From the IMG/VR virus record IMGVR_UViG_2700989488_000014: 9,260 bases of DNA; one strand, given 5' to 3'. Positions 1 to 6,000 of the stretch are shown piece by piece. The number at the start of each line of letters is the position of its first letter. Positions within the stretch are counted from its first letter, which is position 1. The position numbers are program-made. The stretch is from a virus. Taxonomy: Duplodnaviria > Heunggongvirae > Uroviricota > Caudoviricetes.

Positions 1-3000
1 TACAATCGTCAGCGTCGTCACTCTCGTCTGGGGAATATCTCCCCGGCAGCCTTCAGGGAAAAATATCATCAGATGGCTGCTTAAAAAAAGAACAAATGGT
101 AGTGTCCGCTATTGCCAGTACACCTCACTCATCGCTGGATGTTGTCAAACGCAGTAATGGCGAGCAGGTGGCTCACTGGTTCGGGCATCTCGATGCTGAA
201 CTTTTTGCTCATCTCATTTCGCAGGTCTGTCGTATGTATAACAACGCGTTTGTGGGGCCGGAGCGTAATAATCACGGACATGCAGTTATCCTGAAACTCC
301 GGGAACTCTATCCGACACGTTATATCTACAACGAACAGCATCTTGACCAGGCATATGACGACGATACGCCCCGCCTTGGCTGGCTGACAACCCGTCAGAG
401 CAAACCTGTTCTGACCGAAGGAATGAAAACGCTTCTGAATAATGGAATATCAGGGATCCGCTGGTCAGGCACATTATCGGAAATGAACACCTACGTTTAT
501 GACGCGAAAGGCTCCATGAATGCACAGGAAGGCTGCTTTGATGATCAGCTCATGAGCTACATGATTGCCCAGGAGATGCGCGCCAGAATGCCGGTGAGGG
601 TAAAACAGAAAACGGATAAACGCAGAACCACACACTGGATGGCTCACTGATGAAAAATGAAACTAACACCATGGCGACGAAAAACGACAATGGAGCCACG
701 CCGCGTTTTTCTCAGCGCCAGTTACAGGCGCTTTGTTCTGATATTGACAGCCAGCCTAAATGGCGTGATGCCGCAAACAAGGCCTGTGCGTATTACGATG
801 GCGATCAGTTGCCACCGGAAGTTCTTCAGGTACTGAAAGATCGCGGTCAGCCGATGACTATCCATAACCTCATCGCGCCTACCGTCGATGGCGTTCTGGG
901 AATGGAGGCCAAAACACGGACTGATCTGGTGGTGATGTCAGACGAGCCAGATGATGAAACTGAAAAACTGGCTGAAGCTATTAATGCTGAATTTGCCGAT
1001 GCATGCCGCCTTGGCAATATGAATAAAGCCCGCTCTGATGCCTATGCGGAACAAATCAAGGCGGGCCTCAGTTGGGTGGAGGTCAGACGAAACAGCGATC
1101 CGTTCGGGCCTGAATTTAAGGTGTCTACTGTCAGCCGGAATGAGGTTTTCTGGGACTGGCTGAGCCGGGAGGCTGATTTAAGTGACTGCCGATGGCTGAT
1201 GCGTCGCCGCTGGATGGATACCGATGAGGCAAAAGCTACATTCCCGGGAATGGCTCAGGTTATCGATTATGCCATTGATGACTGGCGTAGTTTTGTCGAT
1301 ACCACGGTTACTGAAGGCCAGCCCAGTCCGTTGATGAGTGCATGGGAAGAGTATCAGTCATGGGATCGACAGCAGAACGAATGGCTTCAGCGTGAACGCC
1401 GTCGTGTGCTGCTTCAGGTGGTTTATTACCGTACATTCGAGCGTCTTCCGGTGATTGAACTCAGTAATGGACGGGTGGTGGCCTTTGATAAAAATAATCT
1501 GATGCAGGCGGTAGCTGTGGCATCCGGGCGGGTTCAGGTGAAAGTCGGGCGGGTAAGCCGTATTCGTGAAGCCTGGTTTGTCGGGCCGCACTTTATTGTG
1601 GATCGCCCCTGTAGTGCTCCGCAGGGGATGTTTCCGCTGGTTCCTTTCTGGGGATACCGAAAGGATAAAACCGGGGAGCCATACGGGCTAATTTCCCGCG
1701 CCATTCCGGCACAGGATGAGGTGAATTTTCGTCGTATCAAGCTGACCTGGTTGCTTCAGGCCAAACGCGTGATTATGGACGAGGATGCCACCCAGTTGTC
1801 AGACAACGACCTGATGGAGCAGATCGAACGTCCGGATGGCATTATTAAACTGAATCCGGTCCGAAAAAATCAGAAAAGTGTCGCAGATGTTTTTCGGGTT
1901 GAGCAGGATTTTCAGGTTGCCAGCCAGCAGTTTCAGGTCATGCAGGAATCGGAAAAACTTATCCAGGATACCATGGGAGTGTATTCCGCATTTCTCGGGC
2001 AGGATTCAGGTGCGACGTCAGGCGTGGCTATCAGTAACCTGGTGGAGCAGGGGGCCACAACCCTTGCGGAAATCAACGATAACTACCAGTTTGCCTGCCA
2101 GCAGGTGGGAAGACTGTTGCTGGCTTATCTTCTCGATGACCTGAAAAAACGCCGTAATCATGCAGTGGTGATTAATCGCGATGATCGCCAGCGTCGCCAG
2201 ACCATTGTCCTCAATGCTGAAGGTGATAATGGTGAACTGACCAATGATATTTCAAGGTTAAATACACATATTGCGCTGGCTCCTGTTCAGCAGACACCGG
2301 CGTTTAAGGCACAGCTTGCACAGAGAATGTCAGAGGTTATTCAGGGGCTGCCGCCTCAGGTGCAGGCTGTTGTGCTCGACCTGTGGGTTAATCTTCTGGA
2401 TGTGCCGCAGAAACAGGAGTTTGTTGAGCGTATTCGTGCTGCGCTGGGGACGCCAAAATCACCGGATGAAATGACGCCGGAAGAACAGGAAGTAGCGGCA
2501 CAACAACAGGCACTTCAGCAACAACAGGCAGAACTCCAGATGCGCGAGATGGCTGGCAGAGTGGCAAAACTGGAAGCTGACGCCGCCAGGGCACATGCAG
2601 CTGCACAACGGGATAATGCCAGTGCACAGCGGGAAGTCGCCCTGACACAGGGGCAGCGTTATGTGGATGCGCTTAACCAGGCACATACGGCAGAAATCAT
2701 TACCGGCGTACAGAATATGGAACAGGAGCAGGACGTTCTTCAGCAACAGATGCTGTATACGTTACAACAGCGGATGAATGAAATGTCGCTCTGAAAACTC
2801 TGGCTTCAACTGAACCCCGTCATCGTACGGGGTTTTTTGTTTCCGGAGGTAAGCGTTCCGGGAGCGGTGCGCTTATTCGCGGGGGCAGCGATAAGCCTTA
2901 TTTACTCAACCATTCGGATCTGTCCGATAAACAGACCATGCGGAGTTATTTATGGATTTTGAATTTACGGGTGAAGAAACCCCGGAACAACTGGAAAAAA

Positions 3001-6000
3001 TGCTGGAAGGACTTGGGGATGTGGATATTGACAGTCACGCACAGGACGTCGTGACGGAAGATACCACGGAAAAACATGCGGATGAGGAAGCACAGACTCA
3101 GACGGGCGATAACAATGTGGCACCGACGCCGGATGCCAGTGTGGAGCAGACGCAGGACGTGAAGGAGCCGGAAGCGAAGGGGGTGCTCACCCGCGACGGT
3201 AAACACGTCATTCCCTATGAAGTCCTTGAGGCTGAACGTTCCGGTAAGCAACGGGCCGAACAGGAAGCCGCACTTCTTCGTGGGCAGATAGCTGAAGAAA
3301 AACGCAGGGTGGAACTGCTGACGTCTCAGATCCACCAGGCCGGTATGAAGCCCACACCGTTACCGGAAAACGAAAAAATTTCTGATGAGCAGATTGCCCG
3401 TATCAGGGAGATGTATCCGGAAATTGGTGACGCGGTGGCTTCGCTCATCCGTAAAAATAACTATCTCCAGTCCCGTGTTCAGCAATCAGCACAGCAGGCA
3501 GAAGGTAATGGTGGTGAGGATTTATCACCGGTTCTTGATGCGATGAATGCCGTGCCGGTGCTGAAAACGTGGCAGGAGTCCGATCCAGATCGCTTCTCGG
3601 TTGCTGTATCCATCGACGGGAAGCTCCAGAATGACCCCGCATGGAAAGACAAAACGCTCACTGAACGTTTCGCTGAAGTGGCCCGTCGTACGCAGGTTGC
3701 TTTCGGTGAAGTCAGTGAGTCGTCTGCTGACAACAAGGCAGACAAAACGGATATCCGGAAAACGGCGGAAGAGAAAGTGAAGACCGCTGAACAGGAGCAG
3801 GCAGTACCTGCTTCCCCGTCAGATTTAGGCACCACGGCTTCCGTTGGAACCGGTGATAATTTTGAACGGTTACTTGGCGCTTCTCATTCAGAGGCAGAGG
3901 CGATTATGCGCGGTATGACGAATGCTGAAATAGACGCGCTTCTGGAGAAGCTCGGGTAACTTACTGAAGGAGAACTGAAGTAATGACGACTGTAACATCA
4001 GCCCAGGCGAATAAGCTGTATCAGGTGGCGCTTTTTACCGCTGCCAACCGCAACCGCTCGATGGTCAATATCCTCACTGAACAGCAGGAAGCGCCAAAAG
4101 CGGTTTCGCCGGACAAGAAAAGCACGAAGCAGACCAGCGCGGGTGCGCCGGTTGTACGGATCACTGACCTCAACAAACAGGCCGGTGATGAAGTGACGTT
4201 CAGCATCATGCACAAACTCTCTAAACGTCCGACGATGGGGGATGAGCGCGTTGAAGGCCGTGGTGAAGACCTCAGCCATGCTGATTTTTCCCTGAAAATT
4301 AATCAGGGCCGTCACCTGGTGGATGCGGGCGGACGTATGAGCCAGCAGCGTACGAAGTTCAACCTGGCATCCTCTGCCAGAACGCTGCTGGGTACGTACT
4401 TTAACGACCTGCAGGACCAGTGTGCGATAGTGCATCTTGCCGGTGCCCGCGGTGATTTTGTTGCTGACGACACCATTCTGCCAACGGCAGATCACCCTGA
4501 ATTCAAAAAAATCATGATCAACGACGTACTGCCGCCGACGTATGACCGTCATTTTTTTGGTGGTGATGCGACGAGTTTTGAGCAGATCGAAGCGGCAGAT
4601 ATTTTTTCTATTGGCCTGGTGGACAATCTCTCCCTGTTCATTGACGAAATGGCGCATCCGTTACAGCCGGTTCGTCTGTCCGGTGATGAACTTCACGGAG
4701 AAGATCCATATTACGTCCTGTACGTCACGCCGCGTCAGTGGAATGACTGGTACACCTCGACGTCCGGTAAGGACTGGAACCAGATGATGGTTCGTGCCGT
4801 GAACCGTGCAAAAGGTTTTAACCATCCGCTGTTCAAAGGTGAATGTGCGATGTGGCGGAATATCCTGGTTCGTAAGTATGCGGGTATGCCGATCCGTTTC
4901 TATCAGGGTTCAAAGGTTCTGGTATCAGAGAATAACCTGACGGCAACCACGAAAGAGGTCGCTGCTGCAACCAATATTGACCGCGCCATGTTACTGGGGG
5001 CTCAGGCGCTGGCAAATGCTTACGGTCAGAAGGCAGGCGGTCACTTCAACATGGTTGAGAAGAAAACGGATATGGATAACCGTACTGAGATAGCAATCAG
5101 CTGGATCAACGGTCTGAAAAAAATCCGTTTCCCCGAGAAGAGCGGCAAGATGCAGGATCACGGCGTGATTGCCGTTGATACCGCAGTGAAGCTCTGATTT
5201 TTCCTTTCCCCATGCCGGGTTTTCGCCCGGCTTTTTCTGGAGTCATTAATTATGGCAAAGACTATTCTTGCCCCGTCACTGAGTGAACGGGTCTATACGG
5301 GCACGCACGGTAATGAGTCGGTGGCAGAAGGCGTATTTACGGTGAATGCTGCGGAAGCGGACAGTGTTATTCATCTTCTCTCACTGCCAGTTGGCATCCG
5401 TATCAACTCACTCCAGCTGGTTTCAACGGGCGGTCTGGGTACTGCAACCGTCAGCATTAAGTCTGGTGAGCATGTTCTCATCGATAACAGCGAAGCTGTT
5501 TCTGCAAAATTTGCCAGATATGTGCCAGTGGAGCCGTACACCACACAGCGTGACGGAGAGCTGGTTACTGTCACCATTAAGACTGCCGCTGCAACCGGCA
5601 CCCTGAATGTTCTGCTGCGTTATACCGTGGTGGGATACTGATTAAAACCTTCCGGCCCGCGTCATGCGGGCTTTTTATCCGGGGAATTTATATGAGCGAG
5701 AAAATTGCCGTTGTCTATATCGGCCCAAAACCCGTGAAAAAGGACACCATTACCGGAAGTCGCACGCTGTTCCCACGTCTTGAGCCGGTGCATGTTGACA
5801 GCGCGATGGCCTGGCAACTGCTGGGGTTTCCGGATGTCTGGGTTCGTCATGAAGAGCTTGATGATGTTCTGAAAAAGCAACAACAGAATGAGCAGTTGCG
5901 GCAGGCACAGCAGGCGCAGGAAAGAGTGCTTGCTGCGCTGGTAGAAGCGGAGAACAGTTTTGTTGTTTCTGTTAACGGGCAGGAGGTGGATTTAAGTAAG

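What the first reader, a model, noticed from the sequence alone, without database searches (positions are those of the whole stretch)
2813..5678. Three intrinsic terminators punctuate the head-gene cluster
Clean GC-rich hairpins followed by T-runs sit after the portal gene (2813-2840), after the capsid gene (5214-5238) and after the 129-aa gene (5655-5678). Each lies in a short intergenic gap and is followed by a ribosome-binding site. The pattern suggests transcriptional attenuation that sets stoichiometry, with coat and the small protein made in excess of downstream neck and fibre proteins.
Basis: seen in the sequence. Interest (0 to 1): 0.35.

Follow-up and report, generated by a model that had tools for sequence, protein, structure and literature searches.

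The report
Conserved terminators bracketing phage head genes
Three real, evolutionarily maintained terminator hairpins divide the late operon of a Shiga-toxin phage exactly where virion proteins switch between low and high copy number, an ordinary kind of phage feature; the first hairpin is also tied to a previously undescribed structured RNA leader.

Summary
The window is the head-gene region of a 933W/Sp5-type Stx2a phage. A strict terminator pattern finds 4 hits on the + strand against 0.23 expected, and three of them sit in gaps that make up 3% of the window.

Relatives whose flanking proteins are only about 40% identical keep a hairpin + T-run at the same three junctions with different stem sequences, and T2 shows compensatory changes. 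The T-run is enriched on the 3' side only.

The elements bracket the high-copy proteins. The order is portal (low copy), T1, scaffold-like + capsid, T2, cement protein (1:1 with capsid in phage GP4), T3, then 12-copy neck proteins.

The attenuation idea is only partly supported. Termination at T1 would lower capsid message. The operon is Q-antiterminated and must cross about 10 such terminators. Lytic relatives keep T3. The most likely roles are leaky termination plus protection of mRNA 3' ends.

By-product: T1 always precedes a covarying structured leader of about 110 nt (2833-2946) that is absent from Rfam.

The terminator finding is ordinary (interest 0.3). The leader is the more novel part.

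The parts
650..2794 (+). Portal gene (714 aa), a low-copy protein. It is the last gene of the terminase-portal segment that ends at T1.
   Evidence: ORF list. PHROG 156 portal, E=2e-254. Annotated as portal in 933W.
2812..2843 (+). T1: intrinsic-terminator hairpin (stem 2812-2835, GC core 2815-2820/2827-2832) followed by a T-rich tract, TTTTTTGTTT.
   Evidence: A hairpin + T-run directly precedes the leader in 26 of 26 distinct relatives, with at least 6 different stem sequences. Mean of 8.6 T in the 10 nt 3' of the GC core.
2833..2946 (+). Conserved structured leader of the scaffold-like gene.
- P0 helix: 2833-2846 with 2879-2892.
- P1 hairpin: 2850-2860 with 2865-2875.
- P3a: 2914-2918 with 2923-2927, or alternatively P3b: 2919-2923 with 2931-2935.
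- SD GGAG: 2942-2945.
   Evidence: Alignments A4 and A9, RNAalifold and pair counts: 93% of cells paired against 34-52% for slid controls; one P0 pair occurs as CG/GC/AU/GU. The covariance model finds one + strand copy per phage. No Rfam match.
2952..3959 (+). 335-aa gene. A scaffold-like role is inferred only from its position between portal and capsid genes and its charged, low-complexity sequence.
   Evidence: PHROG 479, unknown function. No PDB relative. Gene order is conserved in all relatives.
3983..5197 (+). Major capsid protein gene (404 aa).
   Evidence: PHROG 334, E=7e-177. Matches the GP4 capsid protein 8h89_A, E=1e-38.
5214..5236 (+). T2: intrinsic-terminator hairpin (stem 5214-5231) followed by TTTTT, lying 17 nt after the capsid stop codon.
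   Evidence: Present in 34 of 35 distinct relatives. Covariation: 6 of 8 pairs changed on both sides, 94% of cells paired, 0 of 500 shuffles as high.
5252..5641 (+). 129-aa cement/decoration-type capsid protein gene. High copy number is inferred from homology to GP4.
   Evidence: PHROG 486, virion structural protein. The family profile matches GP4 8h89_J at E=1.8e-15 and BPP-1-type cement proteins at about 1e-4. GP4 carries 540 cement and 540 capsid copies (PMC9698820 abstract).
5654..5677 (+). T3: intrinsic-terminator hairpin (stem 5654-5672) followed by TTTTT, lying 13 nt after the stop codon of the cement gene.
   Evidence: Present in 35 of 36 distinct relatives with several different stems. 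A homologous terminator is annotated in Bcep22 and present in lytic GP4 and PEp14.
5692..7350 (+). Low-copy neck/connector genes downstream of T3 (153 aa, about 187-223 aa, 216 aa), followed by the tail-fibre gene at 7347-9185.
   Evidence: p216 matches GP4 8jov_2 (12 chains), E=7e-24. p223 weakly matches 8jov_G (12 chains), E=0.003.

Best explanation
T1, T2 and T3 are genuine Rho-independent terminator motifs kept by selection at three junctions of the head-gene cluster. They divide the long Q-dependent late transcript into segments that match copy-number classes: [terminase, portal] T1 [leader, scaffold-like, capsid] T2 [cement] T3 [12-copy neck proteins, fibres].

During lytic growth, Q-modified polymerase reads through most of the time, so transcription is lost only slightly at each site. 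Once transcribed, the hairpins sit at the 3' edges of the scaffold-capsid and cement segments. There they most likely block 3'-to-5' exonucleases after endonucleolytic cleavage. Together with the minority of transcripts that do terminate, this would raise the steady-state level of capsid and cement message over the downstream neck and tail message.

T1 does not lower capsid expression to set stoichiometry. It closes the terminase-portal segment and marks the start of the scaffold-capsid unit, together with the structured leader that always follows it. This resembles a papBA-like arrangement, with a structured 5' end and a terminator-type 3' end.

Shown here: the motifs, their conservation, covariation and strandedness, and their coincidence with copy-number boundaries.
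Inferred: read-through levels, processing and differential stability.
For: - Motifs and statistics.
- Positional conservation with stem turnover in 26/26, 34/35 and 35/36 distinct relatives.
- Compensatory changes.
- T-run enriched only on the 3' side (8.6, 6.7 and 6.9 T of 10 against about 3 expected).
- An intragenic look-alike at 714-732 is not conserved, which serves as a negative control.
- Copy-number classes.
- Q-dependent late operon with about 10 comparable terminators, including tR', whose RNA 3' end has been mapped.
- The Q nozzle prevents terminator hairpins from forming and acts over tens of kilobases.
- Hairpins persist where T-runs fade in distant relatives.
- Precedents for 3' hairpin protection (malEFG) and for a 5' structure plus a 3' terminator giving a stable major-subunit mRNA (papBA).
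- T7 T-phi directly after the capsid gene, with reads dropping downstream.
- T1 is always adjacent to a covarying leader, even when extra genes are inserted after the portal gene.
Against: - No transcript 3'-end, half-life or RNase-cleavage data were available for these positions.
- The strong selection on the U-tract in the enterobacterial lineages argues that real termination matters in some setting. A pure exonuclease block would not need a U-tract.
- The weak T-runs in GC-rich hosts may simply reflect how terminators look in those hosts.
- In lambda, differences in late-protein yield are classically ascribed mainly to translation initiation (my own knowledge, not checked here). Any mRNA-level effect may therefore be minor.
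- The scaffold role of the 335-aa protein is inferred only from position and composition.
Confidence: 0.5

Rival explanations
1. Pure transcriptional attenuation. Each hairpin terminates a substantial fraction of late transcription, so gene dosage of message falls stepwise, and that sets coat and cement in excess over neck and fibre.
For: - Canonical hairpin + U-tract shape with a selected U-tract.
- T3 sits exactly at the step from high to low copy number.
- The T3-position terminator is kept in lytic phages that have no known Q system.
- T7 T-phi is a precedent.
Against: - T1 would reduce scaffold and capsid message relative to portal.
- T2 separates two proteins needed 1:1.
- Q-loaded polymerase ignores terminators processively.
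- About 10 equal terminators lie in series before the distal genes, so substantial termination at each would starve the tail genes.
- A ratio of roughly 45-fold (about 540:12) cannot come from one leaky site.
Confidence: 0.15
2. Insulators that enforce Q-dependence. The terminators stop any polymerase that is not Q-modified from expressing head genes, chiefly in the lysogen. Such polymerase could come from spurious internal promoters or from inserted accessory genes (morons). The terminators would be essentially transparent during lytic growth.
For: - T1-T3 are as strong as tR', which terminates efficiently in lysogens.
- The U-tract is selected.
- The portal-T1 junction is a hot spot for inserted genes in relatives, and T1 always lies downstream of the insert, often with a second terminator.
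- Terminators acting as insulators are documented in other mobile elements (abstract of PMC11658703, listed).
Against: - Strictly lytic relatives (GP4, PEp14) keep the T3-position terminator.
- It does not explain why the sites coincide with copy-number boundaries, or why T2 and T3 lie only 440 nt apart.
- No promoter-like site lies upstream of T2 or T3 on the + strand of the window.
Confidence: 0.25
3. Chance hairpins or neutral remnants of module exchange, with no function.
For: Individual folding z-scores are modest. Short GC-rich hairpins are common.
Against: - 4 observed against 0.23 expected.
- Three hits fall in 3% of the sequence.
- They are kept at the same junctions, with different stems and compensatory changes, in lineages whose flanking proteins are about 40% identical.
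- The non-conserved intragenic look-alike shows what neutrality looks like.
Confidence: 0.02

Closest known systems
[quoted passage not shown]
   Same: It is a hairpin terminator placed directly after the most abundantly needed structural gene of a polycistronic late unit. It is leaky, and reads fall downstream of it.
   Different: T-phi acts on T7 RNA polymerase, and T7 adds promoters in front of gene 10. Here the host polymerase is Q-modified, no promoter was found upstream of the capsid gene, and there are three elements, one of them upstream of the high-copy genes.
Lambdoid tR' and other terminators crossed by Q-antiterminated late transcription (933W pR'-qut-tR')
   Same: Same genome type, same hairpin size, energy and U-tract as tR'. 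They are expected to terminate unmodified polymerase and be read through by the Q-loaded complex.
   Different: tR' is a switch placed next to the promoter. T1-T3 lie 13-16 kb downstream inside the morphogenesis genes, are not annotated in the 933W record, and are conserved in relatives irrespective of any known Q system.
Selective mRNA processing and stabilisation in operons (malEFG intergenic hairpin; papBA major-pilin mRNA)
   Same: A stable hairpin lies at the 3' edge of the segment that encodes the most abundant subunit. For the scaffold-capsid unit there is also a structured 5' region plus a terminator-type 3' end, as in papA.
   Different: Processing sites, RNase dependence and half-lives are unknown here. 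The elements also carry selected U-tracts, which a pure stabiliser does not need.
Terminator annotated after gp56 of Burkholderia phage Bcep22
   Same: It occupies the homologous position, after the small cement-type virion protein that follows the capsid gene, in a homologous head module.
   Different: It has a different stem sequence and a weak T-run (TTTCCATC). Bcep22 is not a lambdoid Q-dependent phage, and its head module also carries a CsrA-like gene.

Membership tests
Rho-independent (intrinsic) transcription terminator | GC-rich stem of about 5-12 bp with a short loop (3-8 nt) | tested here: met
   T1 has 9 bp and a 6-nt loop, T2 has 7 bp and a 4-nt loop, and T3 has 7-8 bp and a 3-5-nt loop. 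Energies are -12.7 to -13.2 kcal/mol.
Rho-independent (intrinsic) transcription terminator | U-rich tract immediately 3' of the stem, on the transcribed strand only | tested here: met
   The tails are TTTTTTGTTT, TTTTTCTG and TTTTTATC. Across relatives there are 8.6, 6.7 and 6.9 T in the 10 nt 3' of the GC core, against about 3 expected, and the 5' side is not A-rich. T2 and T3 have only 5 consecutive U, so moderate strength is expected.
Rho-independent (intrinsic) transcription terminator | Located downstream of a stop codon, in the sense orientation of the operon | tested here: met
   The stems start 18, 17 and 13 nt after the stop codons of the portal, capsid and cement genes.
Rho-independent (intrinsic) transcription terminator | RNA 3' ends are generated at the U-tract in vivo or in vitro | not testable with these tools
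   Term-seq exists for strain Sakai, but no data table is held, and it was not described as coming from induced cells.
Q-antiterminated lambdoid late operon | A Q gene, pR' promoter, qut site and tR' terminator lie upstream on the same strand, with no intervening strong promoter | tested here: met
   These are not in the window. In 933W, which is 98.2% identical over the region, they are annotated about 13 kb upstream on the same strand. No strong promoter-like site lies near T1-T3.
Protective 3' hairpin of a differentially stabilised operon segment (malEFG/papBA type) | A stable hairpin at the 3' boundary of the segment that encodes the more abundant product | tested here: met
   T2 and T3 follow the capsid and cement genes, and the downstream genes encode 12-copy proteins.
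Protective 3' hairpin of a differentially stabilised operon segment (malEFG/papBA type) | Endonucleolytic cleavage downstream and a longer half-life of the protected segment | not testable with these tools
   This needs rifampicin-chase RNA-seq and RNase E or RNase III mutant data.
Any Rfam family (for the leader at 2833-2946) | A match to a curated covariance model | tested here: not met
   cmscan of the whole window at E up to 1 returned no match. ARAGORN found no tRNA or tmRNA.

The most novel reading that the evidence does not exclude
T1 and the roughly 110-nt leader that always follows it (2833-2946) form one conserved RNA module. T1's U-tract is the 5' strand of a 13-bp helix (P0). P0 stacks under a covarying 11-bp hairpin (P1), giving about 25 bp with a conserved 3x3 internal loop. 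A third hairpin follows just before the Shine-Dalgarno sequence.

This would be an undescribed phage cis-regulatory RNA family, found in prophages of Escherichia/Shigella, Citrobacter, Serratia, Yersinia, Pectobacterium and Brenneria. Its proposed role is to control the scaffold-capsid message in one of three ways:
- as an RNase III/RNase E processing site plus a 5' stabiliser;
- as a binding site for an autoregulatory protein, such as the scaffold protein or a CsrA-type protein;
- less likely, as a put-like RNA that licenses read-through of T2 and T3.
Probability: 0.35. Interest if true: 0.55.

Novelty: new member of a known kind. Interest (0 to 1): 0.3.

Why it matters
The three terminators are a textbook kind of element. 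Their value here is descriptive. They are not annotated in the Stx-phage records examined here (933W, ST2-8624, POCJ13). They are strongly conserved, and they map exactly onto the boundaries between 12-copy and several-hundred-copy virion proteins.

This makes the Stx-phage head cluster a clean natural system for an open practical question: how much a processively antiterminated operon can still use terminator hairpins to shape message levels, through residual termination or through mRNA stability.

The region also matters for annotating Stx prophages and for engineering them. Removing or moving these hairpins may change capsid yield.

The structured leader next to T1 is a candidate new regulatory RNA for scaffold/capsid expression. 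Control at that step has been known genetically in P22-type phages for decades (my own recollection, not checked here) without a defined RNA element.

Tried and rejected
- **Rfam and ARAGORN on the window:** nothing found.
- **Close relatives (933W, POCJ13):** the hairpins are invariant, so these comparisons say nothing about function.
- **"Best hairpin per gap" without a T-run requirement:** weak outer TCC/GGA pairs that swallow the T-run confused the call. I replaced it with a GC-core-based count.
- **Promoter between T1 and the scaffold-like gene** (which would rescue the attenuation idea): no sigma-70-like site in the window or in 933W. The conserved blocks covary as RNA with many G-U pairs, so they are not read as a DNA site.
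- **Small ORF in the leader (TTG 2837-2962):** rejected, because the spacer length differs between lineages by amounts that are not multiples of three.
- **Minus-strand sRNA ending at T1:** rejected, because the minus-strand side has no T-run and the minus-strand model scores are near noise.
- **14-mer scan of viral contigs for the leader:** 69 of the 80 listed loci (120 stretches matched in all) were chance matches once filtered with the model.
- **Supplementary Term-seq tables of PMC7547250:** not held.
- **PDB searches for the 335-aa and 153-aa proteins:** no relatives found.
- **Fourth + strand terminator-like hit at 714-732 inside the portal gene:** not conserved, so treated as chance.

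
Full report
**What the window is.** The region 2600-5900 is 100% identical to many Stx2a-converting phages and 98.2% identical to phage 933W. The + strand genes are:
- the end of the large terminase (96-650);
- portal (650-2794);
- a 335-aa protein (2952-3959);
- the major capsid protein (3983-5197);
- a 129-aa virion protein (5252-5641);
- three small structural proteins (5692-7350);
- a tail fibre (7347-9185).

In 933W this cluster lies about 13 kb downstream of Q, pR', qut and tR' on the same strand. It is therefore part of the Q-antiterminated late operon.

**Check of the observation.**
- T1: stem 2812-2835, followed by TTTGTTT.
- T2: stem 5214-5231, followed by TTTTT.
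- T3: stem 5654-5672, followed by TTTT.

Core energies are -13.0, -12.7 and -13.2 kcal/mol. These are like 933W tR' at -14.5 with six U, whose RNA 3' end has been mapped by Term-seq. Folding z-scores against local shuffles are modest.

The full motif is rare by chance. There are 16 terminator-like hits against 8.2 +/- 2.6 in shuffles. With a stricter pattern there are 4 + strand hits against 0.23 +/- 0.45, and three of them fall in the 3% of the window that is intergenic.

Two details are wrong. The T1 gap is 157 nt, not short. The GGAGG right after T1 is not a ribosome-binding site.

**Comparative evidence.** Eighty viral contigs with capsid proteins 73-100% identical keep the same gene order. 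Among the distinct intergenic sequences, a hairpin + T-run is present:
- before the 335-aa gene in 26 of 26;
- after the capsid gene in 34 of 35;
- after the 129-aa gene in 35 of 36.

The stems have several unrelated sequences. T2 shows classical compensatory evolution: 6 of 8 pairs changed on both sides, 94% of cells are paired, and 0 of 500 shuffles reach the observed score. T3 shows less covariation within subgroups, but its stems differ between groups.

I located the GC core without reference to T-runs. The 10 nt on its 3' side then hold 8.6, 6.7 and 6.9 T on average, against about 3 expected, and the 5' side is not A-rich. The U-tract itself is therefore selected, and the elements are unidirectional terminators, not just hairpins.

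A fourth look-alike inside the portal gene (714-732) is not conserved. It serves as a negative control.

**Deeper relatives.** The head module also occurs in Vibrio, Achromobacter, Pseudomonas (F116-like), Burkholderia (Bcep22), Ralstonia (GP4) and Erwinia (PEp14) phages, with capsid proteins 29-55% identical. Gene order is kept.

- Stable hairpins are found at the homologous junctions in most of these phages, but the T-run is often weak or missing.
- The element after the small protein (the T3 position) is the most constant. It is annotated as a terminator in Bcep22 and is canonical in the lytic phages GP4 and PEp14.
- The T2 position has a hairpin without a T-run in GP4, Achromobacter and Bcep22. 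It is empty in PEp14 and in Vibrio phage D56.

**What the hairpins bracket.** A profile of the 129-aa family matches the GP4 chain 8h89_J (E=1.8e-15) and the cement proteins of BPP-1-type capsids. GP4 has 540 capsid and 540 cement copies. The 216-aa protein matches a 12-chain component of the GP4 portal-tail complex (E=7e-24), and the preceding protein weakly matches another.

The order is therefore: low-copy terminase and portal, T1, scaffold-like plus capsid, T2, cement, T3, then 12-copy neck proteins. The copy numbers are carried over from GP4 by homology and were not measured for this phage.

**Mechanism.** It does not fit T1, which would lower capsid message.

It also has to contend with Q. 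The Q-loaded complex forms a nozzle on the RNA exit channel. The nozzle prevents terminator hairpins from forming and acts over tens of thousands of nucleotides. In 933W the late transcript must cross about ten + strand terminators of the same quality to reach the distal genes. Large losses at each site are therefore unlikely.

Once the RNA has left the polymerase, the hairpins exist in the message. E. coli operons use such hairpins to block 3' exonucleases (malEFG). They also use a structured 5' end plus a terminator-type 3' end to give a stable mRNA for the major subunit (papBA).

I therefore favour a mixed role, at confidence 0.5: a small residual termination plus 3'-end protection, which together raise capsid and cement message over the flanking message.

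The selected U-tract keeps two rivals alive:
- real attenuation (0.15);
- insulation against polymerase that is not Q-modified, for instance from inserted accessory genes or in the lysogen (0.25).

The insulation rival is weakened because lytic relatives retain T3. Chance is excluded for practical purposes (0.02).

**The leader next to T1.** In every enterobacterial lineage a T1-type hairpin is followed by a conserved leader that runs up to the Shine-Dalgarno sequence of the 335-aa gene. This holds even though that protein is only about 40% identical between lineages. It also holds where 0.6-1.1 kb of extra genes are inserted after the portal gene. T1 therefore belongs with the downstream gene, not with the portal gene.

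The structure is as follows:
- T1's U-tract plus GUUUGUGC pairs with the invariant GCA.GGGCAGCGAU to form helix P0.
- P0 encloses a covarying 11-bp hairpin, P1.
- A further hairpin precedes the SD.

Overall, 93% of cells are paired, against 34-52% when the partners are slid. One P0 pair occurs as CG, GC, AU and GU. The many G-U pairs make the structure specific to the + strand RNA.

A covariance model finds exactly one copy per phage, always at this place. It also finds the motif in prophages of Serratia, Pectobacterium, Brenneria, Symbiopectobacterium, Citrobacter and Yersinia, with weak matches in two marine gammaproteobacterial MAGs. A Vibrio phage leader shares part of the sequence but is not detected by the model. 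Rfam has no such family.

Its function is unknown. The candidates are an RNase III/E processing and 5'-stabilising site or a protein-binding translational operator. Neither was tested.

**Verdict.** As a kind of feature it is well known (T7 T-phi; lambdoid terminators), so the finding rates as a new member of a known kind, with interest 0.3. The adjacent leader RNA is the more novel item and deserves its own follow-up.

Noticed in passing
window 2833-2946 (+): A conserved, covarying structured leader lies between T1 and the 335-aa gene. It has helices P0, P1 and P3, occurs once per phage, is found in prophages of several Enterobacterales genera, and is not in Rfam. T1's U-tract forms one strand of P0.
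   Followed up: yes
window 714-732 (+), inside the portal gene: A terminator-like hairpin (AGCGCC...GGCGCT followed by TTGTTCTG) lies 64 nt into the portal ORF. It is present only in the Stx-phage group and is not conserved in relatives with 66-80% portal identity.
   Followed up: yes
window 7295-7318 (- strand reading), inside the 216-aa gene: The most stable local hairpin of the window (GGGCAGACA...TGTCTGCCC, -17.1 kcal/mol, z = -4.6) has no proper T-run on either strand. It lies about 30 nt before the start of the tail-fibre gene. Its role is unknown.
   Followed up: no
L058, L059, L064, L066, L069, L073, L075 (portal to 335-aa gap of 560-1100 nt); L084 1223-3336: The junction between the portal gene and T1 is a hot spot for inserted accessory genes. 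In Vibrio phage 1F273_PE002 the inserts are annotated as Thoeris anti-defence genes and an endolysin. The inserts always lie upstream of T1 and often bring a second terminator.
   Followed up: partly
L088 4100-4294 (Bcep22 gp54); L244 2679-2876 (GP4 gp04); L087 7924-8130: Distant relatives of this head module encode CsrA-like regulators inside the structural gene cluster. In Bcep22 and GP4 the gene lies a short way upstream of the capsid gene, which hints at post-transcriptional control of head genes in this module family.
   Followed up: no
window 5205-5243; relatives: In many lineages a short outer pairing (TCC... with ...GGA of the cement gene's Shine-Dalgarno) encloses the T2 hairpin. It could partly mask the SD. 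It is weak (3-5 bp) and may be chance.
   Followed up: partly
L079 and L081, gap between the 129-aa and 153-aa genes (185-206 nt): Two relatives carry an extra insert of about 130 nt with a very stable hairpin (GCTGAGGGGTCGTAGCGGCGTAAGCCGCC..., -24 to -31 kcal/mol) in the T3 gap. It looks like a small repeat element.
   Followed up: no
LC616048.1 39540-44107 (hit H1): One otherwise identical Stx2a phage matches the region in two pieces that span 4568 bp instead of 3301. This implies an insertion of about 1.27 kb (IS-sized) within the head-gene region. Its position was not determined.
   Followed up: no
L234 (NZ_JPLE01000158.1, Xanthomonas pisi DSM 18956, 1716-bp contig): A short contig of a Xanthomonas assembly carries a leader that scores the same as the Stx-phage window (98 bits). 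It is probably contamination of that assembly with E. coli phage DNA.
   Followed up: no
window 5692-6153 and 6029-6700: The 153-aa and 223-aa ORFs overlap by 125 nt as listed, but the PHROG match of the second begins at residue 37. Its true start is therefore probably near 6137, and the long overlap is likely an artefact of taking the first start codon.
   Followed up: no
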